64,000 bases of DNA from Alphaproteobacteria bacterium (GTDB lineage: Bacteria; Pseudomonadota; Alphaproteobacteria; CAAHEQ01; UBA3637), in NCBI GenBank assembly GCA_045118155.1, contig JBGUXS010000078.1, forward strand, positions 443 to 64,442. The letters run 5' to 3'. The stretch's first letter is position 1. Each line of letters starts with the position of its first letter. The notes beneath the pieces were generated by a model that was given only the letters and a program-made list of their open reading frames with translations, was not told the DNA's origin and did no database searches. Made by a program: the position numbers and the translations under genes. Shown in pieces: positions 5,523 to 57,322 of the stretch.

Positions 5523-6064
5523 TGACGGAAGATTTTAAGTTTGAAGATGGTCTAGGACAGGATTATTGGATTCGTGAATTTCATAAAATTCCCTTTCCAG
5601 GAATGGAATTGTTTGAAGTAACTTTTTTTAGACGTATAGAAGGGGCCTATGTGGATAAACATCAGCGCTTTAGAGAAATGGCCGTTGATTTTCTAAAAGA
5701 TTTAGGGAAAGAGGAAGAAGAACTTTATGCTTTTGAATTTTCTGAGGCCGAAGTCGCTTTGATTAAAAAAGGTCGTCTACCAGAAAATTATACTGTCCAT
5801 TTAAAATATCCTTTAGAATACGGTTGTGCATTGATCCCAGAACAATTTGTTTTGATGCCTATTGCCCCTTATTATCGGGATATTAATACTTATATCTTCA
5901 GACAACTTATAACCGATGAAGGAATTAAAAAGCCCCATCACCTTTATGTTCCCACACCAACAGGGCGTATTTATAAACCTTATTCTGGGGATGCAAGTGG
6001 CAGCGGTGGGAAAAGTAATACTTCCCAAATGGCGGCTATGTTTAACCAGGGGCGGGGGCGTTAA
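5522..6064 (+). CDS. Hypothetical 180-aa protein; candidate T4SS substrate or toxin with a degenerate HNH-like motif
   Basis: Its start overlaps the virD4 stop (TAATG) and follows a GAGGA RBS. The segment YTVHLKYPLEYGCALIPEQFVLMP parallels the colicin-DNase/HNH pattern H-H-x3-P-x4-GG-x5-N-x5-P with substitutions. The tail is Gly/Ser-rich and ends in basic GRGR. Confidence 0.6.
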   Translation: MTEDFKFEDGLGQDYWIREFHKIPFPGMELFEVTFFRRIEGAYVDKHQRFREMAVDFLKDLGKEEEELYAFEFSEAEVALIKKGRLPENYTVHLKYPLEYGCALIPEQFVLMPIAPYYRDINTYIFRQLITDEGIKKPHHLYVPTPTGRIYKPYSGDASGSGGKSNTSQMAAMFNQGRGR

Positions 6065-6065
6065 T

Positions 6066-6524
6066 ATGAAATTAATACATGTTGTTTTAAAAGCTATTTA
6101 TAAAGATGCCGCTGTTGTTTTTAATCCTGTGGCTTTGACTGATGTTCAAAAGGCCTCTTTTGAAATTGTAAAAAATAAAGGGATTAAAATTCCTAATGAT
6201 TATGCTGCCTTTTTAACAGAAGTTGATGGATTATCCTGGAATGGATTGTATCTTTTTTCCTTAAATGAAAAGGAACGTCAAGATGGCGCTTTTGTGCACC
6301 CTGGCATTCTACAAACATACCATAAGGGCTTAAAAAATCCGATTTTTAAAAACAGGCTTTTATTAGGATACGGCCCTGAAGAAATCATTACATATCATGC
6401 GGGAAAAAAAGAATATCAAATCCTAAGTCAATATGATTACAGAATCCTAGTACGGCTTCCCCGCTTCTTTGATGTACTGTATCACTATACCCATGCTTTA
6501 TTTGAGGATGCCCCTAAGGACTAG
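6066..6524 (+). CDS. SUKH / SMI1-KNR4-like protein (candidate immunity protein)
   Basis: The ATG at 6066 lies 2 nt after the orf180 stop and follows a G-rich SD. GIKIPNDYAAFLTEVDGLSWNGLYLFSL and LLLGYGPEEIITYHAGKKEYQIL fit the SMI1_KNR4 pattern (lP.dY..FL...nG, then fg.d....i.yd). The longer track ORF starting at 5916 overlaps orf180 and was not used. Confidence 0.6.
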   Translation: MKLIHVVLKAIYKDAAVVFNPVALTDVQKASFEIVKNKGIKIPNDYAAFLTEVDGLSWNGLYLFSLNEKERQDGAFVHPGILQTYHKGLKNPIFKNRLLLGYGPEEIITYHAGKKEYQILSQYDYRILVRLPRFFDVLYHYTHALFEDAPKD

Positions 6525-7698: not shown

Positions 7699-9510
7699 TT
7701 AGTCCCGTGTTACTTCGGGAAGGGTAAAATTATTTTCATCAAAAACACAGTATGTTTCAACCCGGGCGCTTAACGTATTGTCCCCCAAAGTTCCCCCTGT
7801 AAAATTCGTGGAACCCGCCCCCGTAACATAGCCAACTTCTATCCCCCATACTCTGGCAATATCCGCTTCGGTTTCTGCCTTTGCTTTATGAACATTATTA
7901 ACAGCCACAGCCACCGTATAGCGCGACACATTTGCATTTGTGACATTTGTGGTAGATCCATTTGTTACACCTTCAAAACTGTTCAAAACGTCCTTTCCGG
8001 TTGTTCGGATCGGGGTAACCACCAAAGCGGCCTTATATCCGGCCGGGCATGCTGGCGTTGTCACATTTGCCCGCAAGCAATTGTTCGTATATCCACTACA
8101 GTTCCCTAAATTAGCTTCTGTCGTTAATTCGGTAATAGATTTTGAAACATAATTCGGCAAGATATCACTTAATCTCGCCCCACCACGAGAAGCCAACTTA
8201 ACATCATTCATCACAGACGTATAAGCTGGATCTACCTGATAATGATCATACGTTTCTGATTCATTAGCAGCTTGAGCATCCACAAATTCAACGGATGAAT
8301 CAATACCTTTTGCAGACACGACTGCATTTTCTACTAACTGACCATCTGCATCATAAGCATTCAGCGTAACTTTCCCCTTGGAAGATCCATCTGTGGCTTC
8401 TTCAGCTTCGGCCTTTAAGACATCACGTCCGGCACTATCTCTGGTAATAATCTGCCCATTAGCATTGACAATAACCCGACGTTTGCCCGTGGCATCATAA
8501 ACGGTCACTGCCCGCTTGTCATTATCCACAGGATCAGTGGAAATAACGGCCGTTGAAACAAAGGCTTGAATTGTTTCCCCATCGTTCACGGGATCATCCA
8601 TAGAAACCGCTTGACGTCCTACATGCAAATCATTGCGGACATAAACATTCCCCGGGGTTCCTGCCAATCCTTCATCCGTTCCGTTTTCAAGATGTTCTGC
8701 CCCTACCCAAAATAAGGGGGCACATTCTTCCCCTGCATCCAAAATTGTATAACCGGTTGCATCTTTTCTAAAGCAATTCGTATTTCCTTCGCCAATAGAA
8801 AAATAGCTCCAAGCATGCAAGTTTTTGAAAGCGGCTTCATCTTCTAAAGAAGAAAAGAGTGCCCCTTCATCAAATCCAGTAAATGCAACATAAGACGGGC
8901 TTACCACAGGTTCCATCATCAAAGATGCCCCTTCTAATTCCCAAGTTCCCATGGTGCCTACAAAATTATCCCCTTGGACGATACCCCCATCAGCCCCAAT
9001 CAAGGCAGCGATACTAGCCGCCCGCTTTAAATTCCATGTTCCTTGCGGCAGTGCCGATGCTTTAGGTAAGATAACTCCATAAAAAGAGGTCCCAACTTTT
9101 GCCCCTTCCGTATTTTCTAAATTTTTCCCAAAAAGGTAAAAATTGTATTTTTCAGCCGTACTTGATGTCAAAACATCCCCTGTGTACGTGTTATAGGTCA
9201 CTGGTAAGTATGTTGCCACATTTTTCCACAACGTGTTATATGAACAATTGGAAGTTTCTGTTCCAGACAATGCACAAACCCCACCACCGGCTGTGGCTAA
9301 TTCTTCAAGTTGCCTATGTTGCGTTTGGATAAAAGAGGAAAAAGCTTCCTTCATCGTACGCATTTCGGTCGCTACATTAACATTGGCTAGTTCCCGATTA
9401 CGTTGTGCCACTTGCCTATACAAAACAGGTCCCAACACCGCCAAGATCCCTAAGACGGCAATAGCTTCTATCATAATAGACCCAGATTGGGTTTTTACAG
9501 CTTTTTTCAT
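7699..9510 (-). CDS. Large (603 aa) protein with a prepilin/TadE-like class III signal N-terminus
   Basis: The N-terminus MKKAVKTQSG|SIMIEAIAVLGILAVLGPVLY has Gly at -1, Glu at +5 and a hydrophobic helix. The remainder is T/N/G/A/V-rich with Cys pairs near the C-terminus. A consensus promoter lies upstream. Confidence 0.7.
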   Translation of the reverse strand: MKKAVKTQSGSIMIEAIAVLGILAVLGPVLYRQVAQRNRELANVNVATEMRTMKEAFSSFIQTQHRQLEELATAGGGVCALSGTETSNCSYNTLWKNVATYLPVTYNTYTGDVLTSSTAEKYNFYLFGKNLENTEGAKVGTSFYGVILPKASALPQGTWNLKRAASIAALIGADGGIVQGDNFVGTMGTWELEGASLMMEPVVSPSYVAFTGFDEGALFSSLEDEAAFKNLHAWSYFSIGEGNTNCFRKDATGYTILDAGEECAPLFWVGAEHLENGTDEGLAGTPGNVYVRNDLHVGRQAVSMDDPVNDGETIQAFVSTAVISTDPVDNDKRAVTVYDATGKRRVIVNANGQIITRDSAGRDVLKAEAEEATDGSSKGKVTLNAYDADGQLVENAVVSAKGIDSSVEFVDAQAANESETYDHYQVDPAYTSVMNDVKLASRGGARLSDILPNYVSKSITELTTEANLGNCSGYTNNCLRANVTTPACPAGYKAALVVTPIRTTGKDVLNSFEGVTNGSTTNVTNANVSRYTVAVAVNNVHKAKAETEADIARVWGIEVGYVTGAGSTNFTGGTLGDNTLSARVETYCVFDENNFTLPEVTRD

Positions 9511-14668: not shown

Positions 14669-15059
14669 GGGCCACCAATGAACGTACCCGTTCTACCATA
14701 GAAAAAAAACCATTCCGACGCGTGGGGGATAAATGATCTTCTAGACCTAAATCCTTAAAAATCCGTTCTATATCCAATTCCCGAATAAAAGCAGCTGTTT
14801 GCCCATTAATTAGGGAAAGTAAAATAGCCTCTAACCCCCGTACAATAAAGGCATCGCTATCGGCAACAAAAAAGAACTTATCCCCTTTTTGCTGAACAGT
14901 AATCCACACTTGTGATTGGCATCCTTGGACCTTATGGGCTTCTGTTTTATCTTCTTCTGGCATCGGGGGTAAACTCTGTCCTAATTCAATTAGGTATTGG
15001 TATTTTTCTTCCCAATCCGTAAATAAAGAAAAATTATCAATTAATTCCTGTTCTGTCAT
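14661..15059 (-). CDS. sufE: SufE-like cysteine desulfuration protein
   Basis: WEEKYQYLIELG and VQGCQSQVWI, the conserved Cys motif of SufE/CsdE. Confidence 0.85.
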   Translation of the reverse strand: MTEQELIDNFSLFTDWEEKYQYLIELGQSLPPMPEEDKTEAHKVQGCQSQVWITVQQKGDKFFFVADSDAFIVRGLEAILLSLINGQTAAFIRELDIERIFKDLGLEDHLSPTRRNGFFSMVERVRSLVAHA

Positions 15060-16462
15060 TCAATGTTTTTTAATCCTTCTAGTGTTAATTTTACCTTTAT
15101 TATATCAACACTGCGATTTTTTTCATCAAAAATACGCTTATCCTCTTGTAAAAAAGGACGTAAGTCTTTTAATAATCCAGCATCTTCAGTAGCTTGACAC
15201 GCTGAATTTTGTAAAAATTCTTTTTCTTGAGGGGTTGTTTGAACCGCCACATTTTGTAAATAGGTTTGCATCAAAGTACATTGTTCTTCATCAATCGGTT
15301 TGGCTGGGGGAGAAATAGCATCAAAATTCCGAATAAGAAATTCAATATCTCCAACGGGTTTTTCCTTTTCAATCTGTCCTGTAAAATGCACATCTATAAC
15401 CGCTTGTACACTTTCCAAACTTCCTTTAACATCCAAATCAGCCCCTTTTAGCAGCCCCCAAGAAAAATCTTTAGAAAGCAATTGTTCTACTAATATTTCA
15501 CGATCAAACTTTTTGGCTTTGATAACTAATTTTCCCTTTTCTGGGATAAACCCTTTGGTCGGGACATTCCCTATACACGCGAATGTTAGGTTAATTTCAG
15601 CTTCCTCCCCCTTAAATTCTACTTGCCCTTCTACCTGCGTTAAAATAATCTTTCTGGGGTAAACGGGAAATACTAAATCCGCCTGTGGTATTTCAAATTC
15701 AATTTTTCCTGTATCCGCCAATAACCATGCATTATGTAAAATAGGGGCTAATCCCTGAAACCGTGCTTTTTCCGTTAAAGAAGCCACCGTCCCTTGCACT
15801 TCTTTCCCCGTAAATGTCAACCCCAAAAGGGAGGCTTTTTGTTCAATAACGGGAACATGCCCCAAAAAAGAAAACATATATTTGCCGTTTGCTTCATCCA
15901 CTTTCAATTGCCATTCGGGGCGCGTCAGGTGTACATGGCTAGCACTCCACCGATCTTCGGCAATCAAATCCCAATACGGGTGCCATTTAAATTCATTTTG
16001 CCACTTTTCAACATAGAAAAAATTGGGTTCAAATACCGCGGTTGCAAAACCTTCTAGTTGTTCTTTTGGGGGAAAGTGTCCCCGATATAACGTCGTCCCT
16101 TCTAATTGCCCATCTGGGGTCAATAATACCCCTTGTGTAGGGAAAGTCATTTCATCCGGTGTTTCTTTAAGTGGCATCCAAACGGTCAGAACTTTTTTCT
16201 TCAAGTCTAAATCATTCTTCACAGATGCTTCTGGCAATATTAAACTTGCTTGATCGGCTCGTTGTTGCAAAACAGCCCCCGAAATCCCCAATGCCTTTAA
16301 CTTCGCCCTTAGGGCCTTAGCCAAAGTATCATGATCCGGTCGTGTCAACACAGTGGATGGGGTTACGTAAGACATAGCATTAGGGAAAAAACGCGTTAAC
16401 ACCGCGCCTTGCAAAGCAACTGCCCCTACAAGAGCCAGACGTCCCAATAATTTTGCTAACAT
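15056..16462 (-). CDS. Hypothetical exported/periplasmic protein (468 aa)
   Basis: N-terminal signal/anchor MLAKLLGRLALVGAVALQGAV. No recognisable catalytic motif. ATGA overlap with sufE. Confidence 0.6.
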   Translation of the reverse strand: MLAKLLGRLALVGAVALQGAVLTRFFPNAMSYVTPSTVLTRPDHDTLAKALRAKLKALGISGAVLQQRADQASLILPEASVKNDLDLKKKVLTVWMPLKETPDEMTFPTQGVLLTPDGQLEGTTLYRGHFPPKEQLEGFATAVFEPNFFYVEKWQNEFKWHPYWDLIAEDRWSASHVHLTRPEWQLKVDEANGKYMFSFLGHVPVIEQKASLLGLTFTGKEVQGTVASLTEKARFQGLAPILHNAWLLADTGKIEFEIPQADLVFPVYPRKIILTQVEGQVEFKGEEAEINLTFACIGNVPTKGFIPEKGKLVIKAKKFDREILVEQLLSKDFSWGLLKGADLDVKGSLESVQAVIDVHFTGQIEKEKPVGDIEFLIRNFDAISPPAKPIDEEQCTLMQTYLQNVAVQTTPQEKEFLQNSACQATEDAGLLKDLRPFLQEDKRIFDEKNRSVDIIKVKLTLEGLKNIE

Positions 16463-27459: not shown

Positions 27460-27758
27460 TGCCACCATTTTTAAGCCCTGATGAAGATTCGTGTCTTTTA
27501 CACATTTTATTGGTTCCTAATGCTAAAGAAAATAAGATTTATGGTCTTTTTAATGAACGATTAAAACTTTATATTTCTGCCCCAGCTGTGGACGGAAAAG
27601 CGAATAAAGCTTTAATTAAATACCTGGCTGATCTCTTTAACCTAAAAAAAAATCAGATTTCCTTGATACAAGGGGAAAGATCCCATCAAAAAACAGTACG
27701 ACTAGATGCCCCTATTGACCACATCTGTACTTGTTTAAGTCAACATATTTCCGTGTAA
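27456..27758 (+). CDS. DUF167 (YggU-like) protein
   Basis: LLVPNAKENKIYG and LKLYISAPAVDGKANKALIKYLADLF. Confidence 0.8.
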   Translation: MMPPFLSPDEDSCLLHILLVPNAKENKIYGLFNERLKLYISAPAVDGKANKALIKYLADLFNLKKNQISLIQGERSHQKTVRLDAPIDHICTCLSQHISV

Positions 27759-28805
27759 AATACGTGTAATCTCGCTTCCTTGCATCAAAGAAAAACCTAA
27801 GGCTTGGGCTTGTTGTATTTCTTGAGGGGTTTGAATATCAAACAAGATAATTTTTTCTTTAGGATAATTCAAAGTAGCAGCCCATTTCATCTGTTGACTA
27901 TTAATCTTTAGGTAATGCATCGGGATTTTATCCCATGCTAAATAGGATATTTCCTCCGGAATGCGTAATAAAAAGAGGGATTGTTGATAACAAGGTATTT
28001 TTTGAATACTTTGCCATAAATCCCGTTCCCAAAGAAAATCTGATAAACTTATTTCATAAGAAATACCTTGATGTTGATACAATTGGTGCATTTCCTGATA
28101 AACGGGTTGGGTTAAAAGATAAGGACTCGCAGAAAAAACTCCTCCTTGTGTTTTGGGCAATTCCTTTTTTAAAATTTTTGTATACAGCGCATTCTTAAAG
28201 GCCCTTTTCAAATATGTATCAGAATCCAATATCACCTTTGGAAATAGAACTTGACGGACATCAATATCTTTACAAAAAACACTGGTAAATACAGGAACCA
28301 TCTCGGTTAAATCATGAACCTGACAAATGCATTGATGCCGTGTTAAATGTGAAACATCCGCTGTTTTTAGCTCTGATAAAATATGTGTGAGAGTTGGGGT
28401 ATCCAAGGGCAATGAAGGAATTTTTTGAAGCACTTTTAAATCAGAAAAATCTGCTGTTGGGGTTAGCTCTTGATGATTAATTTTATGGATCAAAGCATTA
28501 AAATCTGTGATTAAATTAAAAAATGATAATTTATGTTCTTGGAAAAAGGATTTTTCCAGCCCCTTTAATTTCAAGGAAAGCAACATCATATCCTGTAATT
28601 TATTATGGGCAAAAAAGGCAACGCTATCCCCTTCGCTTAAAAAGAACAATTTCGTTTGATATGTCTGTTCAAAAGAACTCAAAAAATGCAAAAGAACCTT
28701 TTTTTTCTCATCTTCTTTAGGTAAAGGAATATAAAGAGCATGCCCTTTAAATGTTCTTTTTTCAAGATATTTGAGATAGTCAAAAACACTATTATACCGC
28801 ATCAT
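27735..28805 (-). CDS. Degenerate GGDEF-like + EAL-like two-domain protein (paralog 1)
   Basis: KLFFLSEGDSVAFFAHN sits where RxGGDEFavll would be. The C-terminal half follows the EAL topology (LLRIPEEISYLAWDKIPMHYLKINSQ, then IILFDIQTPQEIQQAQALGFSLMQG) but lacks the catalytic EAL and DDFG residues. Confidence 0.6.
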   Translation of the reverse strand: MMRYNSVFDYLKYLEKRTFKGHALYIPLPKEDEKKKVLLHFLSSFEQTYQTKLFFLSEGDSVAFFAHNKLQDMMLLSLKLKGLEKSFFQEHKLSFFNLITDFNALIHKINHQELTPTADFSDLKVLQKIPSLPLDTPTLTHILSELKTADVSHLTRHQCICQVHDLTEMVPVFTSVFCKDIDVRQVLFPKVILDSDTYLKRAFKNALYTKILKKELPKTQGGVFSASPYLLTQPVYQEMHQLYQHQGISYEISLSDFLWERDLWQSIQKIPCYQQSLFLLRIPEEISYLAWDKIPMHYLKINSQQMKWAATLNYPKEKIILFDIQTPQEIQQAQALGFSLMQGSEITRILHGNMLT

Positions 28806-29874
28806 ATCCCCTTAAATGTTGCACACACACGCATTGTGATGCTTGATGCGGGATCGCCCCCATTTGCATACACGTTTGTAAAGCACAATCTCCCCCATAT
28901 GGACACGTTTTTTTTCGAGAAGCCGCATGAATCAAATCAATAAAATCACCTTGAAAAAAGGTATATGGGGAAGACAGAATTTGAGTTAATTTTTCTTGCG
29001 TATCCACTCCTGTTACAAAAACAGGAACATGATTGATTGATTGTGTTAAACAAACTTCTACGGGAAGAAGTAAAAAATCAGCTTCTAATAAATCAAAACG
29101 ATAAAAGGCCGTTTCTGCAGTAATGCCCCCAATACCTAACCGATACTGTTTTCCTGGACGAGTTAGGGCTTCCTTATACAGATTTTTATTTAACAAGACT
29201 TCTGCAATATCTAAAATAATCCAAACTGGGTCATTATTTTCAATCCAAGCACTTTCCAACGTTCCTTGCACCATCAAAGGCAATGTCGTTTGTTTAAACA
29301 GCTCTTTATTTGGGTGTTGCAATAATTGTTTCTGTATTTTCTGAACTAACCACATTGGAAGCTGATCCATATTGTTTTTTAAGGTCCATGTATATCCCCA
29401 CAGAGAGTTGCTCCCCTTTTGATAAATTACCCGCCTAAACCAACTATTTTTTTCGGGAATATCTTTTAAAAAAGCCTCATAATCAACCTCTTGATTCGTT
29501 TGCTTTTTAGCTATCTGAATCAGGGACAAAACCCCCATCAAATCCTGTGGTAAATGGAACAAGCGTACATTTTCTTCTTTTTTTCCTGTTTGAATTTGAA
29601 AAAATGTTTGAATTTGGCGCATCACATCCACAACTTGATGTTCATCAAGATCAACCCCTATTAATAAACGATCTTGTTGTTCAAATGTAAAAAGCCGACA
29701 ATATTCATACGCTAATAACGGTTCTAATAAATGTTCTATGACGTGCATCAACCTTTCGGCCCCTGGCAGACCTAATAATTGACTTGTCCCTATCCAAAGG
29801 ACAACCGACGGTGTTTCTAAAGCAGCGACACGCTTTATTGTTTCTAAGGCCAGTTGTTCTTGTGTCTCATACAT
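28792..29874 (-). CDS. Degenerate GGDEF-like + EAL-like two-domain protein (paralog 2)
   Basis: CRLFTFEQQDRLLIGV sits in the GGDEF position. VIYQKGSNSLWGYTWTL corresponds to YQPi...g.EaL, followed by RLGIGGITAETAFYRFDLLEADFLLLP and VFVTGVDTQEKLTQILSSPYTFFQG. It overlaps paralog 1 by 14 nt. Confidence 0.6.
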   Translation of the reverse strand: MYETQEQLALETIKRVAALETPSVVLWIGTSQLLGLPGAERLMHVIEHLLEPLLAYEYCRLFTFEQQDRLLIGVDLDEHQVVDVMRQIQTFFQIQTGKKEENVRLFHLPQDLMGVLSLIQIAKKQTNQEVDYEAFLKDIPEKNSWFRRVIYQKGSNSLWGYTWTLKNNMDQLPMWLVQKIQKQLLQHPNKELFKQTTLPLMVQGTLESAWIENNDPVWIILDIAEVLLNKNLYKEALTRPGKQYRLGIGGITAETAFYRFDLLEADFLLLPVEVCLTQSINHVPVFVTGVDTQEKLTQILSSPYTFFQGDFIDLIHAASRKKTCPYGGDCALQTCMQMGAIPHQASQCVCVQHLRGYDAV

Positions 29875-29927: not shown

Positions 29928-29980
29928 CTTGTTTTTTTGGGAAAAATCTTGCATACTCCTTTCAATAGGAGGAATCACAC

Positions 29981-31951
29981 ATGCATTACTTAACAGGGGA
30001 AGAAGTTTCTGTCACATCCTTAAAAACAATAGCCCAAGAATTTGGTTTTATGTTGTGGCCGCACCCCGATGATCCTTTCTTATTGCATAAAACACCCTAT
30101 CAAAGTTTTCCAGAAATGCTTTCTGTCCTTACAGATCATATTACAGAAAAAAAACTTAATTCCCTCTTCACTTTCCCTGTTTCTTTCATCTTAGATGCGA
30201 ATGCACAATCTGAATCCTTACATAACTTCTTTAAATATCAAGCCCGTAACCAATTGGATAAAACCATCGGTGTCTTGCTAACTTGCCCCGTTATTTACGC
30301 CTGTGATGTTGCGCAAATTTTTACCGAAGCCTTACATCAACGATTACACTTTCCTAGCACACGTTACAGTAATATTCATATGGCTATTCATGAAGCGCTC
30401 GTCAATGGTTTAGTGCATGGAAATCTAAAACTACCTAGTTCTTTACGGCAATCAGCTCGTGATTTCGTTGATTACGCCCGCATTGTTAATGAACGCTTAT
30501 TAGACCCTGCCTATGCTAATAAATCCATCAGTATTTGGGCTACTTGGAATACCTCTAGATTGGAAATTAAGATTCGGGACGAAGGGGCTGGATATACGGT
30601 TTTACCCCCCCATAAAAAACATGTGGCAGAAAAACGTTCTGGACGGGGGCTTTATCTAATTGCCGGAACTGCTGATTCCTGCACAATTGATGATTTTGGG
30701 CGAGAAATCACATTATCTTTTATTCTAAATAATCTAAACAACGAACAAGATATCGGGGTTTCTGAAAATGCGGCTTTACTGCATGATCCTGTAACCGATT
30801 TTTCGGATTGTCGTATTTTAATCATTGAAGATAACCCCAGTAATCAAATCTTGGTTTCACAACTTTTAAACGTGGTTGGAATTGGTCATATTGAAACAGC
30901 TCAAGATGGGGTTGAAGGCCTTGAAAAAGCATTCAGTATGAAACCAGACTTAGTCATTTTGGACATCACTATGCCCCGAATGAATGGATATGAAGTACTT
31001 CACCAACTCAGAACAAATCAAGATACGGCCTCTATCCCGGTTTTAATTCAAACGGCTTCTGATACACGGGCAGCACGGGATAAAACTTTTAGTGCGGGGG
31101 CAACAGACTTTATCACAAAGCCATTAAATCCTTTGGAATTTTTCTCTCGGATACGGGTACACTTAGAAAATAGATTACTTGTAAAACATCTTGAAACGAA
31201 ACTCGCTCAAATCAATGAAGAACTAGAACTTGCCCAAAAAATGCAAGAAAGTTTATTACCCCCCACGGAAGCACTTCAAGATATCAGCCAACGTTATCAT
31301 CTAGATATTTCTTATACGTTCTTACCTTCTTCCCATTTAGGGGGGGATTTCTGGCAAATTTTTCCATTGGCTAAAGATAAGGTCGCTTTTTATATTTGCG
31401 ATTTTTCGGGACATGGGGTAAGTGCTGCCATGAATACGTTCCGATTACACACCTTAATCGGGCAAATGGATATGACGGCATTGAAAAAGCCTTCCGAATT
31501 TCTTTTTATGCTTAATAATTCTTTGGTCAACTTGTTGCCCAGGGGACAATTTGCTACTTTCTTCTTTGGTATTTTAAACAAGCGACAAGGAACATTAACA
31601 TATGCTGGGGCCAGTTCGCCCTTCCCTATTTTGGTTAAGGACAACAAACCCTCTTTCTTAGATACTTCCGGGATGCCTTTGGGAATTTTAAAGGACGTTA
31701 CTTATAAAGATAAAAAGGTACCATTTTCCAAAGAAATGGGCATTTTACTATACAGTGACTCTTTCACTGAACAACAAAATAAAGAAGGAAATCGCCTTGA
31801 TTATGATGGTTTTATGAAAATGACTCAGACGTGTTTCTCAGAAAAAACATCTCAACAAGTCATTGCCCAAATCATGCAAAAATTTCATGAATTTTCTGAC
31901 ACCCCTAGTACCGATGATATTACGGCTGTCTATTTGAAAGGCCTCTTATGA
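29981..31951 (+). CDS. Fusion protein: RsbW/SpoIIAB-like HATPase kinase domain + response-regulator receiver + PP2C (SpoIIE/RsbU-type) phosphatase
   Basis: N-box HEALVNGLVHGN, G1 IRDEGAGY and G2 SGRGLYLIAG. REC: ILIIEDNPSN, DLVILDITMPRMNG and ITKP. PP2C: GGDFWQIF, YICDFSGHGVSAAM and TDDITAVYLK. Confidence 0.85.
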   Translation: MHYLTGEEVSVTSLKTIAQEFGFMLWPHPDDPFLLHKTPYQSFPEMLSVLTDHITEKKLNSLFTFPVSFILDANAQSESLHNFFKYQARNQLDKTIGVLLTCPVIYACDVAQIFTEALHQRLHFPSTRYSNIHMAIHEALVNGLVHGNLKLPSSLRQSARDFVDYARIVNERLLDPAYANKSISIWATWNTSRLEIKIRDEGAGYTVLPPHKKHVAEKRSGRGLYLIAGTADSCTIDDFGREITLSFILNNLNNEQDIGVSENAALLHDPVTDFSDCRILIIEDNPSNQILVSQLLNVVGIGHIETAQDGVEGLEKAFSMKPDLVILDITMPRMNGYEVLHQLRTNQDTASIPVLIQTASDTRAARDKTFSAGATDFITKPLNPLEFFSRIRVHLENRLLVKHLETKLAQINEELELAQKMQESLLPPTEALQDISQRYHLDISYTFLPSSHLGGDFWQIFPLAKDKVAFYICDFSGHGVSAAMNTFRLHTLIGQMDMTALKKPSEFLFMLNNSLVNLLPRGQFATFFFGILNKRQGTLTYAGASSPFPILVKDNKPSFLDTSGMPLGILKDVTYKDKKVPFSKEMGILLYSDSFTEQQNKEGNRLDYDGFMKMTQTCFSEKTSQQVIAQIMQKFHEFSDTPSTDDITAVYLKGLL

Positions 31952-32655
31952 TTCGGGTGTATATAGAGGCTCTGGACCCTAAAAAACCAACACCTCTTTC
32001 TGTGGATCACTATCATTATTTGGCCCACGTTATGCGTTTAAAAGCGGGGGACAGTTTTTTAGCGTTTAATCAACTTCAAGGGGAATTTTTAGCTGTATTT
32101 CAACCTAAAAACAAAAAAGAAGGTCATCTTTTACTACAAAAACAAACGCGTTTACCAGAACAACCTCGTCCGCCTGTAACACTTTATATCGCCCCTATCC
32201 GAAAAGAAAAAATGGAACTTGTGTTACAAAAGGCAACAGAAATTGGCGTAGAGATCATCCAACCTATTTTAACGAAACATACATGCCATCGGCCTTTATC
32301 AAAAGAACGGGCGGATATTATTATAAAAGAAGCGGTAGAACAATCTGAACGGCTGACATTACCTAATTGGCTTCCCCCTATATCTTTGGAAGAACTTCTT
32401 ATTAAACGTTCAACAGATATCCCTCTTTTTTACCTATCCGAACGAGGGGAAACGCAACATATTTCTTTGCCCGCCCCTCCTATAAGCTTTCTTATCGGAC
32501 CAGAAGGGGGATTTTCTAAGGAAGAAATTACCTTATTAGGTCAACAAAAAAACGCCCAAGCTATCAACCTAGGCGCTTTTATTCTACGGGCGGAAACAGC
32601 CGCTATTGCTATGCTAGCGACCTACCGCTTTCATAAACTGTTTTATACAGCTTGA
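31948..32655 (+). CDS. rsmE: 16S rRNA (uracil1498-N3)-methyltransferase
   Basis: HYLAHVMRLKAGD, KMELVLQKATEIGV, FLIGPEGGFSKEE and ILRAETAAIA. Confidence 0.9.
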   Translation: MIRVYIEALDPKKPTPLSVDHYHYLAHVMRLKAGDSFLAFNQLQGEFLAVFQPKNKKEGHLLLQKQTRLPEQPRPPVTLYIAPIRKEKMELVLQKATEIGVEIIQPILTKHTCHRPLSKERADIIIKEAVEQSERLTLPNWLPPISLEELLIKRSTDIPLFYLSERGETQHISLPAPPISFLIGPEGGFSKEEITLLGQQKNAQAINLGAFILRAETAAIAMLATYRFHKLFYTA

Positions 32656-32831
32656 CGTAGTTTTTCCTCACAGCAACACTTTTCTTCAACAAACCATATA
32701 CGATCTTCAAATTCGGATTTTTTCCCCTTATTGAATTGGCTAACAGGACGAAAATACCCCATAACCCGTGTCCAACATTCCACCGCTTGACGTTCATTAG
32801 AAAATTTTTCTAAAATTTGGTTATCTGTCAT
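32643..32831 (-). CDS. Glycyl-radical peptide of anaerobic ribonucleotide reductase, encoded as a separate 62-aa ORF
   Basis: TRVMGYFRPVSQFNKGKKSEFEDR matches the NrdD C-terminal glycyl-radical motif (RxxGY...N.GK..E...R). Its ATG overlaps the stop of the 689-aa nrdD ORF (ATGA). Confidence 0.7.
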   Translation of the reverse strand: MTDNQILEKFSNERQAVECWTRVMGYFRPVSQFNKGKKSEFEDRIWFVEEKCCCEEKLRQAV

Positions 32832-34897
32832 GCTTTGTTCTCCTTTTCTGCAAGTTCTTGACGTTTTTTTTCAATGAGTTCCGCATCACACTTTGGGCAG
32901 AACTTGTGTTCCCCACTAATATACCCATGCTTGGGGCAAATAGAATAGACAGGGGTAATAGAAACATAAGGAAGATGATAATTTTCTAATACCCGTCTAA
33001 TAAGTGATTTACAAACACTTGCTGAAGAAATCCGTTCATTCATATACAGGTGCAAAACCGTTCCCCCTGTATACTGTGTTTGCAATTCATCTTGATAATC
33101 CAACGCTTTAAACGGATCATCTGTGAAGTTCTGTGGTAATTGAGAAGAGTTTGTATAATAGGGGGCCTCTTTCTTTCCTGCTTGAATAATACCAGGATAG
33201 CGTTTTTGATCTTCTTTGGCAAAACGATATGTTGTCCCTTCAGCTGGCGTTGCTTCCAAATTGTACATATTTCCTGTTTCTGCTTGGAAATCCAGCATTT
33301 TTTCCCGAATATGTGTTAAAAATTCTTTAGCCATCGCCCGCCCTTTTTCCGAAGCAATGTATTCTTCATCATTAGTAAAGTTCCGAATCATTTCATTAAT
33401 ACCATTAACCCCAATCGTGGAAAAATGATTTCGGAATGTTCCTAAATATCGCCGTGTATAAGGATACAACCCCCGATCCATGTGCATTGAAATGGTTTTA
33501 CGTTTAATTTCTAAGGAAGTCTTCGCTAATTCCAGTAATTCATCCAAACGTTTATACAATTCCTCTTTCTTCCCCTTATACAGGTATCCCAAACGGGCAC
33601 AGTTAATTGTAACAACCCCAATAGACCCCGTTTGTTCTGCTGAACCAAATAAACCACCACCTCGTTTTTTCAATTCCGTCAAATCCAACCGTAACCGACA
33701 ACACATTGAACGAATATCTGAAGGCTTCATATCAGAACTAACATAGTTTGAAAAATAGGGTAATCCATATTTAGCCGTCATTTCAAATAACAATTCCGTA
33801 TTTTCAGAATCCCATGGGAATTCATTTGTAATATTGTATGTCGGGATAGGGAAAGTAAACGGCCGCCCTTTGGCATCCCCACTTCCCATAACTTCTAAAT
33901 AAGCCCTATTAATCATATCCATTTCTTTTTGCAGATCACCATAAACAAAATCTTGTTCCACCCCCCCAATGATAGGGTGCCGATTCTTCAAATCTTCAGG
34001 GCAATTCCAATCAAAAGTTAAGTTCGTAAAGGGTGTCTGTGTCCCCCAACGCGATGGTACATTCAAGTTAAAGATGAAGGATTGCATCGCTTGTTTTACT
34101 TCTTCATAAGGTAATTTTTCAATTCGTATAAATGGTGCTAAGTACGTATCCACAGAAGAAAACGCCTGTGCCCCAGCCCATTCATTCTGCAAAGTCCCCA
34201 AGAAATTAATCATCTGGCTAAACGCAGAAACAAGGTGTTTTGGCGGTTTAGATTCTGTCTTATTGGGAACCCCATTAAAACCTTCTTCTAATAAAACCCT
34301 TAAGGACCACCCTGCACAATACCCACTCAACATATCCAAATCATGAATATGATAATCCCCATTTCGGTGAGCTTCCCCAATTTCTGGCGTATACACGTGG
34401 CTCAACCAATAATTGGCCACCACCTTTCCTGCCGTATTTAAAATCAATCCCCCTAAGGAATATCCTTGATTAGCATTTGCGTTCACCCGCCAATCTGACC
34501 GATCTAAATATTCATTAATAGAAGCCACCGCATCAATAACCGTTTTCTTATCATTCCGCATTTTTCCGCGTTGTTCACGGTACACGATATAAGCCCGGGC
34601 AGTTTTGTAATAATTAGAGGAAATTAAAACCTGTTCAACCACATCTTGAATTTGCTCAATATTAGGATAAACCCCGAAAGCAAACCGATGCTTTAAAACC
34701 TTAATAACTTGTCTTGTTAATAACCACGCTTCATCTTGACCGAATTCAGCCGTTGCTTCCCCAGCTTTCAAAATAGCAACCATAATTTTAGTCACATCAA
34801 ACGGATACTGTTGCCCATCCCGTTTAATTACATAGCTCAACGGACTAATATCAATGGTTACATTTAGCGGCTGGGCTCCTGTCAAAACTTGCAACAT
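32828..34897 (-). CDS. nrdD: Anaerobic (class III) ribonucleoside-triphosphate reductase, large part lacking the glycyl-radical segment
   Basis: ATP-cone (VIKRDGQQYPFDVTKI), catalytic core (SMCCRLRLD, GSIGVVTINCARLGY, NLEATPAEG) and Zn-ribbon CPKHGYISGEHKFCPKCD. It then stops after a K/E-rich tail. Confidence 0.9.
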   Translation of the reverse strand: MLQVLTGAQPLNVTIDISPLSYVIKRDGQQYPFDVTKIMVAILKAGEATAEFGQDEAWLLTRQVIKVLKHRFAFGVYPNIEQIQDVVEQVLISSNYYKTARAYIVYREQRGKMRNDKKTVIDAVASINEYLDRSDWRVNANANQGYSLGGLILNTAGKVVANYWLSHVYTPEIGEAHRNGDYHIHDLDMLSGYCAGWSLRVLLEEGFNGVPNKTESKPPKHLVSAFSQMINFLGTLQNEWAGAQAFSSVDTYLAPFIRIEKLPYEEVKQAMQSFIFNLNVPSRWGTQTPFTNLTFDWNCPEDLKNRHPIIGGVEQDFVYGDLQKEMDMINRAYLEVMGSGDAKGRPFTFPIPTYNITNEFPWDSENTELLFEMTAKYGLPYFSNYVSSDMKPSDIRSMCCRLRLDLTELKKRGGGLFGSAEQTGSIGVVTINCARLGYLYKGKKEELYKRLDELLELAKTSLEIKRKTISMHMDRGLYPYTRRYLGTFRNHFSTIGVNGINEMIRNFTNDEEYIASEKGRAMAKEFLTHIREKMLDFQAETGNMYNLEATPAEGTTYRFAKEDQKRYPGIIQAGKKEAPYYTNSSQLPQNFTDDPFKALDYQDELQTQYTGGTVLHLYMNERISSASVCKSLIRRVLENYHLPYVSITPVYSICPKHGYISGEHKFCPKCDAELIEKKRQELAEKENKA

Positions 34898-53517: not shown

Positions 53518-53805
53518 ATGCGGGAACCTATTTTAAAAGCGGTCAGTATGCCGGCGCGTATTTTATGGGCGCCGTCGGTTCCGGCGTTGTTAAACATGGT
53601 TTGTCAATTACCTTTCATGTTGTTCTATGCGGGACAAGGGGGCAACCCTTTGCTATTCATGGGAACTATCATCGGGGTTCATGCCTTAATTGCTCTTTAT
53701 GCCGCGAAAGAACCTCATTTATCTAATATGTTCAAAGCCCAAGGTCCTTTCTTTAAGAAAAGTTCACAAATGTATACCTCATCAGGAAGAAAATACGCCC
53801 CATGA
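53518..53805 (+). CDS. virB3: Type IV secretion system protein VirB3
   Basis: ~96 aa. ILKAVSMPARILWAPSVPALLNM (L.ka.tRP...GvP pattern) and two TM helices. ATGA overlap with virB4. The track ORF starts earlier, at 53497. Confidence 0.8.
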   Translation: MREPILKAVSMPARILWAPSVPALLNMVCQLPFMLFYAGQGGNPLLFMGTIIGVHALIALYAAKEPHLSNMFKAQGPFFKKSSQMYTSSGRKYAP

Positions 53806-56237
53806 ATCAAACAGATGTTTTCGCCCTTATTTTACAAAATGCTTCCTCTACGGGGTTACTTATTGCCTTGTTAGGAGTATTAGCACTTGTTTTTGTCATG
53901 GTTGTATTTGTGACCTCCTTAGGAAATATGTTACTTCCCAAACCAAAAGAAACCCTTGTTTCTGATTTTCTTCCTTTTTCAAGGCTAGACCCAGATGGTG
54001 CCACCATTTACATGCGTAATGGTACTTTGGCTCGTGTTTTTGAATTAACAGGAACGGATACCACTTTAGCAAGTGATATTGAACGTAAAGCCTTAATGGA
54101 AAAACGGCAACAATGGATTGATTCACTAAGTGAATTAGAAATTATTTGCAGGGTTATTACGATTCGTGAAAAAATTCCTTTAGCCGAAGAAACACTACAT
54201 CCAGATAATCCTTTGCTCAATAAAGTGTCAGAACTTTGGTTGAACAGTTTACACCGTATTTTCAGAAACAAACATTACCTAATTCTTTCCGTTAATGATC
54301 GTAAGGATGCCATTAATGATTTAATTCAGGCAACAAATGCGACTCTTTCTATTTTAGATGTTTATCATCCTATTCTTATTTCTGAAAAAACCCCAGATAA
54401 ACATCAAGACAAAAGCCCCTTTTGGGTTTTTTCACAACTTGTCAGCCCCGTATCAAACCCCAAACCCATTGTAGGCTTTGAAAAAGGGGAAGAACTTAAT
54501 TCCTTTTTAACGTCTGACTATATCCACTTCACAAAAGATGAAGGGATTATCCGTTTCTTTTCTGGGGATAGGGAAAAATTAGCCATTTGTATCGGTATTC
54601 GTAAGCCTGGGGATTTCATGGATGAACAAATGGTTGCCCGTATTTTAGGAATTGATTGTGAAGTTGTTATTACACACAATATCCATGCTATTCCAAAAGC
54701 AAAAGGAAACCTGTTAATGATTCAACAACGCCGTATGGCTTACTTAACAAGTTTTTCTGAAAGTGTACGTTCCCAATATAATACCGCCATGCAATTAATG
54801 GATCCTTCTGATATTAATTCACAAACCCTTAATGAATATTCTATGTCTATTATGGTTTATGGGGAATCTAAGGAAGAACTTGTTTTTGGACAACAGGAAG
54901 TTGAAAAAATATGCCGACTTTACGGGGTGACCCCTGTGCGAGAAGGTTGGATTACTCAAGCTGTTTTCTTTTCTCAAATTCCCTCTTATGAAGTATATCC
55001 ACGTACATACTTGTATTTATCGCGGGTAGTGGCGTGTTCCATTTGCATGGATAAAACAACTGAAGGCCGGCAAAAATCTGATTGGGGGCCTGTGCCTATT
55101 TCTTACTTCCGGACTATTACGGGGACCCCTTACGCTTTCCAATTTCATGTAACAGAAGAACCCTATGCTGTGGCACATACAGCCCTTATTGGTCCAACGG
55201 GACAAGGGAAAACAACCTTATTTTCATTTTTAGCAGGCCAATCTTCCCGTATTCCAGATTTACGGACTTATTTCTTTGACCGTAACAATGGGGCCAAAGT
55301 TTTTGCTTTATTACAAGGGGCTCCTTATGTGCGGTTTGATGGGGGGGACAATGCTGTTGCCTTAAATCCTTTCTTTATGCCAGATTCCCCTGAAAACAGG
55401 GCATTTTTACGATCTTGGTTACGCTCTATTACTGGCTGTACAGATGCTTTTTCCGAAGAAGAAATTGCCCGAGCCGTTACAACAGCTTATGACTATTTAA
55501 AACCAGAAGAACGTCTTTTGAAGAACTTGTATAAAAGCTCTTTTTCCTTAAACGGAGATATGCGCCGTGAACTAAAACGTTGGGTCAGTGATGATCAATA
55601 TGGTCGGATCTTTAATGCCGAAGAAGATAAATTAGATATTGATAACCGCTATACTGGTTTTGATTTTACGCATATTTTCCAAGATGGGACGTTGGCTCCT
55701 GCTGTCATCAGTTATATCATGTACCGCATTCATGAATTAGCTAGTTTAAAAGGGACCCCCTCGTTAGTGATGATTGATGAAACGGCCCCTATGTTAGAAC
55801 ATCCTATGTTCCGAGACAATTTCATTGTAGGCCTTCGGGAAGGACGAAAGAAACGACAAGCATTCTTATGTGCTTTCCAGCAACCTCGCTTTTTAGATGA
55901 AAACGGTTTAGGGGATGTGATTCGTGGCCAATGTCAAACCATTATTTTCTTTAGAAATTTACAGGCAACCCCCGCGGATTATGAATCTTGGAATTTAACC
56001 CCAAGTGAACTAAACTTTATTCTAGGAAAAGAATTTATTGATCATAAATACGCCATCCTTGTCAAACGGCCCGCTGTTAATGAATCTGTTATCTTAGATA
56101 TTAATTTGGGGGGATTAGGTCCCTACTTAAAAATTTATTCTTCTGGGAATAAAAATGTGGCCTTAGTTGAACGTCTTAGTCATGAACTAAAATATGCTAA
56201 AGATATCCTACAACAATATCTACAGTTATCTGATTAG
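53802..56237 (+). CDS. virB4: Type IV secretion system ATPase VirB4
   Basis: 811 aa of CagE/TrbE/VirB4 architecture. Walker A LIGPTGQGKTT and Walker B-like SLVMIDETAPML. Confidence 0.92.
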   Translation: MNQTDVFALILQNASSTGLLIALLGVLALVFVMVVFVTSLGNMLLPKPKETLVSDFLPFSRLDPDGATIYMRNGTLARVFELTGTDTTLASDIERKALMEKRQQWIDSLSELEIICRVITIREKIPLAEETLHPDNPLLNKVSELWLNSLHRIFRNKHYLILSVNDRKDAINDLIQATNATLSILDVYHPILISEKTPDKHQDKSPFWVFSQLVSPVSNPKPIVGFEKGEELNSFLTSDYIHFTKDEGIIRFFSGDREKLAICIGIRKPGDFMDEQMVARILGIDCEVVITHNIHAIPKAKGNLLMIQQRRMAYLTSFSESVRSQYNTAMQLMDPSDINSQTLNEYSMSIMVYGESKEELVFGQQEVEKICRLYGVTPVREGWITQAVFFSQIPSYEVYPRTYLYLSRVVACSICMDKTTEGRQKSDWGPVPISYFRTITGTPYAFQFHVTEEPYAVAHTALIGPTGQGKTTLFSFLAGQSSRIPDLRTYFFDRNNGAKVFALLQGAPYVRFDGGDNAVALNPFFMPDSPENRAFLRSWLRSITGCTDAFSEEEIARAVTTAYDYLKPEERLLKNLYKSSFSLNGDMRRELKRWVSDDQYGRIFNAEEDKLDIDNRYTGFDFTHIFQDGTLAPAVISYIMYRIHELASLKGTPSLVMIDETAPMLEHPMFRDNFIVGLREGRKKRQAFLCAFQQPRFLDENGLGDVIRGQCQTIIFFRNLQATPADYESWNLTPSELNFILGKEFIDHKYAILVKRPAVNESVILDINLGGLGPYLKIYSSGNKNVALVERLSHELKYAKDILQQYLQLSD

Positions 56238-57226: not shown

Positions 57227-57322
57227 GAAAAAAAGTAAAAAAGCGTTTTTTTTAAATTTTAATCACATTTTATGCTTGCTTTTCCCACAAAAAAAAGGTT
57301 GAATGATGCGCAGAGGAGAATT

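What the first reader, a model, noticed from the sequence alone, without database searches (positions are those of the whole stretch)
29981..31951. Single-polypeptide partner-switching module: RsbW-like kinase + receiver + PP2C phosphatase
The 656-aa protein combines an anti-sigma-type serine kinase HATPase domain (N, G1 and G2 boxes all present), a complete receiver domain (DD, D, T, K residues present) and a SpoIIE/RsbU-type PP2C domain. Kinase and phosphatase are the two antagonistic activities of partner-switching circuits and are normally on separate proteins. No STAS (RsbV-like) or sigma-factor gene is adjacent. It is transcribed divergently from the degenerate GGDEF/EAL pair, which suggests a shared regulatory unit. 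The phosphorylation target is unknown.
Basis: partly seen in the sequence, partly recalled or inferred. Interest (0 to 1): 0.5.

Follow-up and report, generated by a model that had tools for sequence, protein, structure and literature searches.

The report
Fused kinase–receiver–phosphatase signalling protein
This gene encodes a real but not unprecedented bacterial signalling protein that joins an anti-sigma-type serine kinase, a phospho-receiver and a PP2C phosphatase in one chain; it arose by fusion of two neighbouring genes of a common three-gene module, and its usual small target protein (STAS) is no longer encoded next to it.

Summary
ORF 29981-31951 (+) encodes 656 aa with HATPase_c_2, Response_reg and SpoIIE domains, all above Pfam cut-offs. 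Every catalytic motif is invariant across 37 orthologues from gut and rumen Alphaproteobacteria MAGs.

The architecture is not new. Vibrio fischeri SypE has the same order (kinase-REC-PP2C) and acts on the STAS protein SypA. HsbR and CrsR carry the same three domains in another order.

Stand-alone relatives of the kinase half sit in an overlapping three-gene operon: STAS (101 aa), kinase, REC-PP2C. This operon often lies at the end of Che-like clusters. The window protein is a fusion of genes 2 and 3, and one fused relative (L090) still has STAS directly upstream. In the gut clade I found no STAS in the 64-kb window, none within ±10 kb of 29 orthologous loci, and no remnant.

- Residues 1-101 form an extra flavodoxin-like domain. 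It is neither STAS nor GHKL, and it is shared with the stand-alone kinases.
- The only constant neighbour is rsmE, with an ATGA overlap.

The "degenerate GGDEF/EAL pair" has no support from Pfam or from family profiles against PDB sequences, and it occurs only in a sub-clade.

Verdict: a new variant of a known kind, of modest interest.

The parts
29967..29972 (+). Shine-Dalgarno sequence AGGAGG, 8 nt upstream of the ATG
   Evidence: Read directly from the sequence.
29981..31951 (+). Whole gene: 656-aa N-domain / RsbW-like Ser kinase / receiver / PP2C phosphatase fusion protein
   Evidence: ORF. Pfam. More than 120 full-length homologues with the same architecture. AF2 model with mean pLDDT 85.
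29981..30283 (+). N-terminal alpha/beta domain, aa 1-101, flavodoxin-like fold, function unknown. Invariant D72, F83, T101; near-invariant W26, P27, P32, P44, S79.
30284..30730 (+). HATPase_c_2 (RsbW/SpoIIAB-type) serine kinase domain, aa ~102-250. N box E138/N142/H146, G1 D200-x-G-x-G204, disordered ATP lid 204-218, G2 G221-x-G223.
   Evidence: Pfam PF13581, 43.9 bits against cut-off 27.4. Invariant motifs. Best PDB sequence match is 9qih 'SenB' at E 1e-4, with all three boxes aligned.
30731..30808 (+). Low-confidence linker, aa 251-276. This is the junction where the stand-alone kinase gene ends and the REC-PP2C gene begins in split relatives.
   Evidence: pLDDT <50 for 252-270. Junction comparison with L030, L086 and L087.
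30809..31165 (+). Receiver (REC) domain, aa 277-395. E283-D284, phospho-acceptor D328, T358, K380.
   Evidence: Pfam PF00072, E 4.8e-26. Invariant residues. Foldseek and phmmer matches to RssB, PleD and CheY.
31166..31948 (+). Long connecting helix (aa ~384-424, which begins inside the receiver's last helix) and SpoIIE/RsbU-type PP2C phosphatase domain (aa ~441-656). D456, D474, G477-H478-G479, D593, D645-D646.
   Evidence: Pfam PF07228, E 5.2e-36. Invariant residues. Foldseek top hit is P. aeruginosa RssB 3f7a at E 1.4e-24, followed by SiaA, SpoIIE and Rv1364c PP2C domains.
31948..32655 (+). rsmE (16S rRNA m3U1498 methyltransferase). Its start overlaps the stop of the fused gene (ATGA). It is the only constant neighbour across the clade.
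   Evidence: Pfam and NCBIfam. ATGA overlap read from the sequence. Immediately downstream in all but one (L021) of the orthologous loci that extend past the stop codon.

Best explanation
The gene encodes a SypE-like, dual-activity response regulator of a partner-switching circuit.

Shown:
- It is the product of a fusion between the second and third genes of a widespread alphaproteobacterial three-gene operon: STAS (101 aa), then an RsbW-like kinase with an N-terminal alpha/beta extension (~240-250 aa), then REC-PP2C (~390 aa).
- That operon often lies at the 3' end of Che-like chemosensory clusters.
- All ATP-binding, phospho-acceptor and metal-binding motifs are invariant in the fused clade.

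Inferred, by analogy with SypE/SypA and HsbR/HsbA:
- The kinase domain phosphorylates the conserved serine of a small STAS protein, and the PP2C domain removes that phosphate.
- Phosphorylation of D328 in the receiver, by an unlinked histidine kinase or CheA-type kinase, shifts the balance from kinase to phosphatase.
- The phosphorylation state of the STAS protein is the output.
- In this gut and rumen lineage the STAS gene has left the locus, so the substrate must be supplied in trans.
- The gene is co-transcribed and translationally coupled with rsmE.
For: Domain content and intact motifs.

Same order and mechanism in SypE: unphosphorylated SypE acts as the kinase on SypA Ser56, N52 is essential, and the C-terminal domain is the phosphatase (PMC3610818; PMC10120452; PMC8256260). 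The same logic applies in HsbR/HsbA (PMC6482189).

Split relatives with overlapping STAS-K-(REC-PP2C) genes:
- L030.
- L086, L087, L088.
- L095.
- L092, truncated after a partial third gene.

Fused and partial relatives:
- L090 is a fused relative with STAS still directly upstream.
- L097 has a full Che cluster followed by STAS and REC-PP2C.

Sequence relationships:
- The REC-PP2C half is 37-42% identical to the split genes. The kinase half is 26-32% identical, including the N-extension in L086 and L087.
- In a kinase-domain NJ tree the window clade groups with L089 and L090. Other fused forms are scattered, which indicates recurrent fusion.
- The operon STAS proteins all keep the F-x-D-S-(S/A)-(A/G)-L-G phospho-serine motif.

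Structural matches: P. aeruginosa RssB for REC-PP2C; a GHKL protein for the kinase.
Against: No STAS gene was found for this lineage. There is none in the 64-kb window, none within ±10 kb of 29 orthologous loci, and no pseudogene remnant. A STAS-profile search returned only operon-linked STAS genes of other lineages among the five hits whose context was looked up.

No cognate histidine kinase, CheA or Hpt is in the window.

Nothing about activity, the direction of the REC switch or the output has been measured. The direction of the REC switch is taken from SypE and HsbR only.

The role of the N-domain is unexplained.
Confidence: 0.6

Rival explanations
1. The STAS partner has been lost altogether in this reduced gut lineage. 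The intact kinase and phosphatase then act on a different substrate: a non-STAS protein (possibly linked to ribosome biogenesis, given the fixed coupling to rsmE) or the protein's own N-terminal domain in cis.
For: - STAS is absent from every examined locus of the clade and left no remnant. The syntenic position in L095 (NMO and atp neighbours) holds STAS.
- The rsmE linkage is specific to this clade and survives rearrangement of all other neighbours.
- The N-domain carries invariant D72 and T101, and S/T at position 55 in 26 of 37 sequences.
Against: - From established knowledge of the family, every characterised HATPase_c_2 serine kinase phosphorylates a STAS domain. SypA itself is not adjacent to sypE.
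- Only about 20 kb per genome could be examined.
- The N-domain also exists in stand-alone kinases that have their own STAS gene, so it is not a STAS replacement.
- Operon linkage to rsmE may be fortuitous.
Confidence: 0.15
2. The kinase domain works chiefly as an anti-sigma factor that sequesters a sigma factor. This is as in CrsR and HsbR with RpoS, with the STAS protein as the releasing antagonist.
For: - HATPase_c_2 is the RsbW/SpoIIAB family.
- The kinase domains of CrsR and HsbR bind RpoS (PMC6482189).
Against: - No sigma-factor gene lies in the window or in any related locus examined.
- The ancestral context is chemosensory (MCP and Che genes), not a sigma operon.
- SypE/SypA acts below transcription with no known sigma factor (PMC10120452).
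Confidence: 0.15
3. The protein forms a functional unit with the two divergently transcribed upstream proteins, read as degenerate GGDEF/EAL proteins, and phosphorylates them.
For: - Divergent arrangement with a 106-nt intergenic region.
- By eye, the C-termini resemble the last strands of EAL domains.
Against: - No Pfam hit at E<=10.
- Family profiles find no EAL or GGDEF chain in the PDB.
- The pair is present in only 6 of the 30 gut-clade loci examined (the window, L001-L003, L010, L027). It evolves much faster than the fused gene (25-29% against 55-60% identity).
Confidence: 0.05
4. The protein is a catalytically inert adaptor, as E. coli RssB is, with the PP2C and kinase domains serving only as binding modules.
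For: The REC-PP2C half gives its best NCBIfam and structure matches to RssB proteins.
Against: - All catalytic motifs of both enzymes are invariant at about 50% overall identity.
- The RssB NCBIfam scores are far below the cut-offs (139 against 700 bits).
- The matching structure is the P. aeruginosa RssB.
Confidence: 0.05

Closest known systems
SypE of Vibrio fischeri, with its STAS substrate SypA
   Same: - Identical domain order: N-terminal RsbW-like serine kinase, central receiver, C-terminal PP2C phosphatase.
- A conserved N-box Asn (SypE N52; N142 here).
- No sigma factor in the system.
- The substrate is not encoded immediately next to the enzyme (PMC3610818, PMC10120452).
   Different: - The SypE kinase domain starts at the N-terminus: its NTD is 140 aa with the N-box Asn at 52. 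It therefore lacks the ~100-aa N-terminal alpha/beta domain found here.
- SypE lies inside the syp polysaccharide locus together with sypA. Here no STAS gene is in reach and the fixed neighbour is rsmE.
- The nearest relatives here are split alphaproteobacterial operons. The fusion is therefore most likely independent of SypE.
Alphaproteobacterial STAS - kinase - REC/PP2C three-gene module at the end of Che-like clusters (uncharacterised as far as I could find; a STAS-only gene within chemosensory gene clusters, and REC-PP2C-kinase fusions, are noted in PMC9239204)
   Same: - Homologous kinase, including the N-extension.
- Homologous REC-PP2C (37-42% identity).
- Same gene and domain order.
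   Different: - Genes 2 and 3 are fused here.
- The STAS gene and all Che, MCP and HK genes are missing from the locus.
HsbR (P. aeruginosa) and CrsR (S. oneidensis)
   Same: The same three activities on one chain. Receiver phosphorylation switches between phosphorylating and dephosphorylating a STAS protein (HsbA, CrsA) (PMC6482189).
   Different: - The domain order is REC-PP2C-kinase.
- The STAS gene is adjacent.
- The kinase domain also binds RpoS, which Alphaproteobacteria lack (own knowledge).
P. aeruginosa RssB (PDB 3f7a, 3eq2)
   Same: Best structural and sequence match for the REC plus helical linker plus PP2C half (Foldseek E 1.4e-24; phmmer E 2e-33).
   Different: - RssB has no kinase domain.
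- The NCBIfam RssB score is far below the cut-off, so the window protein is not an RssB orthologue.
Rv1364c of M. tuberculosis (PDB 3ke6)
   Same: A single polypeptide carrying PP2C (RsbU-like) and RsbW-like kinase domains.
   Different: From own knowledge: the sensor is PAS rather than REC, the order differs, and a STAS domain is fused in. Here the N-domain was tested and is not STAS.

Membership tests
SypE-type tripartite response regulator (kinase-REC-PP2C) | Domain order: N-terminal HATPase_c_2 serine kinase, central receiver, C-terminal PP2C | tested here: met
   Pfam coordinates 110-246 / 279-391 / 466-652. SypE architecture from PMC3610818.
SypE-type tripartite response regulator (kinase-REC-PP2C) | Intact catalytic residues: N-box Asn, G1 and G2 boxes, receiver Asp/Thr/Lys, PP2C acidic motifs | tested here: met
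   All invariant in 37 orthologues.
SypE-type tripartite response regulator (kinase-REC-PP2C) | A cognate single-domain STAS substrate encoded in the genome | tested here: inconclusive
   None in the 64-kb window or within ±10 kb of 29 orthologous loci.
SypE-type tripartite response regulator (kinase-REC-PP2C) | Common descent with SypE (orthology) | not testable with these tools
Indirect evidence points to independent fusion: the N-box offset of 90 residues, and nearest relatives that are split operons.
STAS-kinase-REC/PP2C three-gene module | Kinase with the N-terminal alpha/beta extension, homologous to the stand-alone kinases of the module | tested here: met
   BLASTP to L086_K and L087_K covers aa 4-247 at 28-32% identity. 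P0137 aligns over 4-247.
STAS-kinase-REC/PP2C three-gene module | REC-SpoIIE protein homologous to gene 3 of the module | tested here: met
   37-42% identity over about 376-381 aligned residues to L030, L086 and L087.
STAS-kinase-REC/PP2C three-gene module | STAS gene immediately upstream and overlapping | tested here: not met
   The upstream gene is a divergent no-Pfam ORF. No STAS or remnant was found. The feature is met in the fused relative L090.
STAS-kinase-REC/PP2C three-gene module | Adjacent MCP, Che or histidine-kinase genes | tested here: not met
   None in the window. Present in L030, L090, L092, L095 and L097.
HsbR / CrsR | Order REC-PP2C-kinase, with an adjacent STAS gene | tested here: not met
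   The order here is kinase-REC-PP2C. No adjacent STAS.
RsbW/SpoIIAB anti-sigma factors | HATPase_c_2 domain above the Pfam cut-off | tested here: met
   43.9 bits against 27.4.
RsbW/SpoIIAB anti-sigma factors | Binds and is encoded with a cognate sigma factor | tested here: inconclusive
   No sigma-factor gene in the window or in related loci. Binding is not testable.
STAS domain (for the N-terminal domain, aa 1-101) | STAS fold or sequence profile | tested here: not met
GGDEF / EAL (for the upstream pair 27735-28805 and 28792-29874) | Match to PF00990 or PF00563, or to solved GGDEF or EAL chains | tested here: not met
   No Pfam hit at E<=10. Five-sequence family profiles against the PDB gave no GGDEF or EAL hit at E<=10.

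The most novel reading that the evidence does not exclude
In this gut and rumen alphaproteobacterial clade the STAS partner has been lost from the genome. The still-intact kinase/phosphatase pair has been rewired to a non-STAS substrate, possibly tied to ribosome maturation through its fixed translational coupling with rsmE, or to its own N-terminal flavodoxin-like domain. This would be the first RsbW-type kinase with a non-STAS target.
Probability: 0.12. Interest if true: 0.65.

Novelty: new variant of a known kind. Interest (0 to 1): 0.3.

Why it matters
This is a clean natural example of how partner-switching circuits are remodelled. Two adjacent, overlapping genes (kinase and REC-PP2C) fused, apparently more than once, giving the same layout as the experimentally studied SypE by an independent route.

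The clade studied here then lost linkage to both its STAS substrate and its chemosensory input, yet kept every catalytic residue. If a STAS partner exists elsewhere in these genomes, the finding is an ordinary orphaned module. If not, it would challenge the rule that RsbW-type kinases act only on STAS domains.

The conserved N-terminal domain of this kinase subfamily and the fixed coupling to rsmE are small, testable open points in a poorly known group of uncultured gut Alphaproteobacteria.

Tried and rejected
1. **N-domain as a built-in STAS substrate.** The collinearity STAS-K-RP against N-domain-K-REC-PP2C prompted this idea. It is rejected for four reasons:
   - Pfam gives no hit.
   - hhalign probability is <=0.3%.
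   - Stand-alone kinases carry the same N-domain alongside a separate STAS gene.
3. **Upstream pair as GGDEF/EAL.** Not supported.
4. **A small conserved upstream ORF as a cryptic partner.** Upstream genes fall into unrelated groups (NMO, kdsB, atp, UP1/UP2). The 77-aa ORF of L004 has no Pfam hit.
5. **STAS pseudogene remnants upstream of the fused gene.** None by tblastn at E<=10.
6. **Search for an unlinked STAS of the gut clade.** A profile of operon STAS proteins was filtered by low-GC amino-acid composition, and five contexts were examined. All belonged to other lineages and were linked to their own module.
7. **Literature on PDB 9qih 'SenB'.** Nothing found.
8. **afdb50 fold search of the N-domain.** The library was unavailable.
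Full report
**1. Observation**

An AGGAGG Shine-Dalgarno sequence lies 8 nt upstream.

Pfam finds three domains, all above their gathering scores:
- HATPase_c_2, aa 110-246, E 2.9e-11.
- Response_reg, aa 279-391, E 4.8e-26.
- SpoIIE, aa 466-652, E 5.2e-36.

A database search returned more than 120 full-length proteins of 650-680 aa with the same three Pfam domains, at 48-68% identity. All come from metagenomes or from MAGs labelled Alphaproteobacteria. A scan of species-representative genomes returned 24 full-length orthologues. All are MAGs, 23 labelled Alphaproteobacteria and one Lactobacillales. Where the title names a host it is a sheep, goat, yak, roe deer or cattle rumen; the 'Lapin' (rabbit) and SGB-numbered titles I take to be gut samples as well.

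In a 37-sequence alignment every diagnostic residue is invariant:
- N box: E138, N142, H146.
- G1: D200-x-G202-x-G204.
- G2: G221-x-G223.
- Receiver: D284, D328, T358, K380.
- PP2C: D456, D474, G477-H478-G479, D593, D645-D646.

**2.

An AlphaFold2 model built on the alignment has mean pLDDT 85. Two segments are of low confidence:
- 204-218, between G1 and G2, which is the position of the ATP lid of GHKL kinases.
- The 252-270 linker.

Residues 1-101 form a separate, very confident domain (pLDDT around 90, and 89 when predicted alone). Its secondary-structure order is strand-helix-strand-helix-strand-helix-strand.

I tested whether this domain is a built-in STAS substrate. It is not:
- Pfam gives nothing.
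- hhalign against SpoIIAA, RsbV and four operon STAS proteins gives probability <=0.3%.

It also has no profile similarity to the protein's own receiver domain. I therefore call it a small flavodoxin-like domain of unknown function. Its invariant residues are D72, F83 and T101. W26, P27, P32, P44 and S79 are nearly invariant.

The REC, helix and PP2C half matches P. aeruginosa RssB best, both in structure (3f7a, E 1.4e-24) and in sequence. The NCBIfam RssB models score far below their cut-offs, so it is not an RssB orthologue.

The kinase domain's nearest solved relative by sequence is 9qih 'SenB' (E 1e-4). The N, G1 and G2 boxes align, as does a helical insertion between N and G1. I found no paper on that entry.

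**3. Origin**

A HMMER search of 1.8 billion cluster representatives with aa 1-260 found 1989 relatives at E<=1e-3. Of the best 150, 12 are fused proteins of 559-665 aa. Nearly all the others are stand-alone proteins of 140-310 aa. In most of these the kinase core begins 50-110 residues in, so they also carry an N-extension.

Wherever I could see the context of a stand-alone relative, it is the middle gene of an overlapping three-gene operon: STAS (101 aa), kinase (224-252 aa), REC-SpoIIE (387-394 aa). This holds for:
- L030, an Elsteraceae MAG.
- L086, L087 and L088.
- L095.
- L092, whose contig ends inside the third gene.

The operon repeatedly follows chemosensory genes:
- L030: PAS histidine kinase and an MCP-signal protein upstream, with CheB, CheD and CheR nearby.
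- L092: CheD, CheB and an MCP-signal protein.
- L090: an MCP-signal protein.
- L097: a complete CheY-CheA-CheW-MCP-CheR-CheD-CheB-MCP cluster followed by STAS and REC-PP2C.

A STAS-only gene as part of the gene order of some chemosensory classes, and REC-PP2C-kinase fusions, have been noted in comparative work on Campylobacterota (PMC9239204).

The window protein aligns with both downstream genes of the operon:
- 37-42% identity to the REC-PP2C genes.
- 26-32% identity to the kinase genes, including the N-domain in L086 and L087.

Its low-confidence linker corresponds to the gene junction. It is thus a fusion of genes 2 and 3.

A fused relative, L090 (34% identity), still has the 101-aa STAS gene directly upstream and overlapping it. 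The closest outgroup, L089 (35% identity over the full length, GC 0.35), has no adjacent STAS gene.

In a neighbour-joining tree of the kinase domain, the window clade, L089 and L090 form one fused group. Other fused representatives are scattered among stand-alone kinases. This is a rough tree, but it suggests the fusion arose repeatedly. In this lineage the order of events was fusion first, loss of STAS linkage later.

**4. Context in this lineage**

The 64-kb window contains housekeeping genes:
- RNA metabolism and translation: RNase E/G, PNPase, rpsI and rplM.
- Envelope and cell shape: amiC, lpxA and lpxD, bamA, mreBCD with pbp2 and rodA.
- Other core functions: nrdD, gatCAB, dnaE.

It also has two scattered T4SS genes and several ORFs with no Pfam hit. 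It has no STAS, sigma factor, Hpt, histidine kinase or Che gene.

A STAS HMM scores the positive control (the L030 STAS) at about 1e-44 in its three-sequence form and about 2e-42 in its six-sequence form. It finds nothing better than E 0.2 among 2735 stop-to-stop ORFs from the window and from 29 orthologous loci with ±10 kb flanks. tblastn with four STAS proteins finds no remnant in the 1.5 kb upstream of any fused gene.

The upstream neighbours differ between sub-clades:
- a divergent NMO-family gene;
- a co-oriented kdsB;
- the atp operon;

The one constant is rsmE. It lies immediately downstream in all but one (L021) of the orthologous loci that extend beyond the stop codon, usually overlapping by a few bases (ATGA in the window). 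This linkage is absent from L030, L086, L087, L089, L090 and L095.

L095 is a low-GC alphaproteobacterial contig with a split module. It shares the NMO (49-52% identity) and atp neighbours with the gut clade. This suggests the chromosomal position is ancestral and that STAS was removed from it.

**5. The upstream pair**

Neither protein gives any Pfam hit, even at E<=10. Five-sequence family profiles searched against all PDB chain sequences return no GGDEF or EAL protein.

By eye the C-termini do resemble the last EAL strands ('...YLKIN...', '...FDIQTPQEIQQAQALGFSLMQG'). A very degenerate EAL-like fold therefore cannot be excluded without a structure prediction, and I had none left.

The pair evolves much faster than the fused gene (25-29% against 55-60% identity) and is confined to one sub-clade. 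It is therefore not a conserved partner.

**6. Mechanism**

Shown:
- The protein carries a complete RsbW-type kinase, a complete receiver and a complete PP2C, all under purifying selection.
- Its ancestors worked next to a STAS protein that keeps the canonical phospho-serine motif.

Inferred from SypE/SypA and HsbR/HsbA:
- The unphosphorylated regulator phosphorylates the STAS serine.
- Phosphorylation of the receiver aspartate favours the phosphatase.
- The STAS phosphorylation state is the output (PMC3610818, PMC10120452, PMC8256260, PMC6482189).

For this clade the substrate must be encoded elsewhere, or it has changed. I tried to find an unlinked STAS gene with a profile of operon STAS proteins. 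That search gave 614 hits, of which 120 were listed. I filtered them by low-GC amino-acid composition and inspected five contexts. All belonged to other lineages and sat beside their own module. The question stays open and needs whole-genome scans.

**7. Comparison and novelty**

The design 'kinase plus receiver plus PP2C on one chain' is known and characterised:
- SypE has the same order.
- HsbR and CrsR have a different order.
- Rv1364c is a further single-chain variant.

The protein meets the architectural and catalytic criteria of a SypE-type regulator. It does not meet the criterion of a locally encoded STAS, and common descent with SypE could not be tested. The N-box Asn is at position 52 in SypE and 142 here, and the nearest relatives are split alphaproteobacterial operons. 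Both point to an independent fusion.

What is different here:
- the N-terminal flavodoxin-like domain typical of this kinase subfamily;
- the loss of STAS and chemosensory linkage;
- the clade-specific coupling to rsmE.

I rate it a new variant of a known kind, with modest interest (0.3). The most novel reading still open is loss of STAS and rewiring to another substrate. I give that a probability of about 0.12.

Noticed in passing
window 28792-29874 (-) and 27735-28805 (-): Two overlapping, fast-evolving genes with no Pfam or PDB-sequence match. The first has an invariant C-terminal cysteine cluster (C323-P324, C329, C334, C347), which suggests a metal site. Homologues occur only in L001-L003, L010 and L027.
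   Followed up: partly
L095:8308-8982, L092:3066-3728, L091:8314-8937: In other low-GC Alphaproteobacteria the middle gene of the STAS-kinase-REC/PP2C operon has no HATPase_c_2 Pfam hit. By eye it lacks the G1 (DxGxG) and G2 (GxG) boxes, so it is probably a pseudokinase. The adjacent STAS keeps its serine motif. In L091 the REC-PP2C gene is missing altogether.
   Followed up: partly
L097:1-11533 (GCA_030429625.1): A complete Che-like cluster (CheY, CheA, CheW, NIT-MCP, CheR, CheD, CheB, MCP) ends in STAS plus REC-PP2C with no kinase gene. This looks like a chemosensory pathway whose output is a partner-switch phosphatase.
   Followed up: no
window 31948-32655 (+), and the homologous position in nearly all gut-clade loci among L001-L029: rsmE is translationally coupled (ATGA overlap) to the fused regulator gene throughout the gut clade, while every other neighbour varies. 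It is not linked in any outgroup. The reason is unknown.
   Followed up: partly
window 3351-5522 (+) and 53802-56237 (+): A VirD4/TraG-type coupling protein and a VirB4/TrbE-type ATPase lie about 50 kb apart among housekeeping genes. This is a scattered type IV secretion system.
   Followed up: no
window 32828-34897 (-); L004:13241-16419; L089:2-3055: Anaerobic ribonucleotide reductase NrdD in the window. Na+-pumping oxaloacetate decarboxylase and PFOR occur in related loci. Together these are consistent with an anaerobic gut lifestyle for this uncultured alphaproteobacterial clade.
   Followed up: no
PDB 9qih chain A ('SenB', 304 aa), compared with window aa 131-254: This is the nearest solved relative of the kinase domain. 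It shares the helical insertion between the N and G1 boxes. No publication was found in the searchable library.
   Followed up: partly
window 2199-3341 (+), 7699-9510 (-), 15056-16462 (-), 57272-58063 (+), 5522-6064 / 5916-6524 (+): Several sizeable ORFs with no Pfam match. The 5916-6524 ORF has only a weak SUKH/SMI1-like hint (E 0.01).
   Followed up: no
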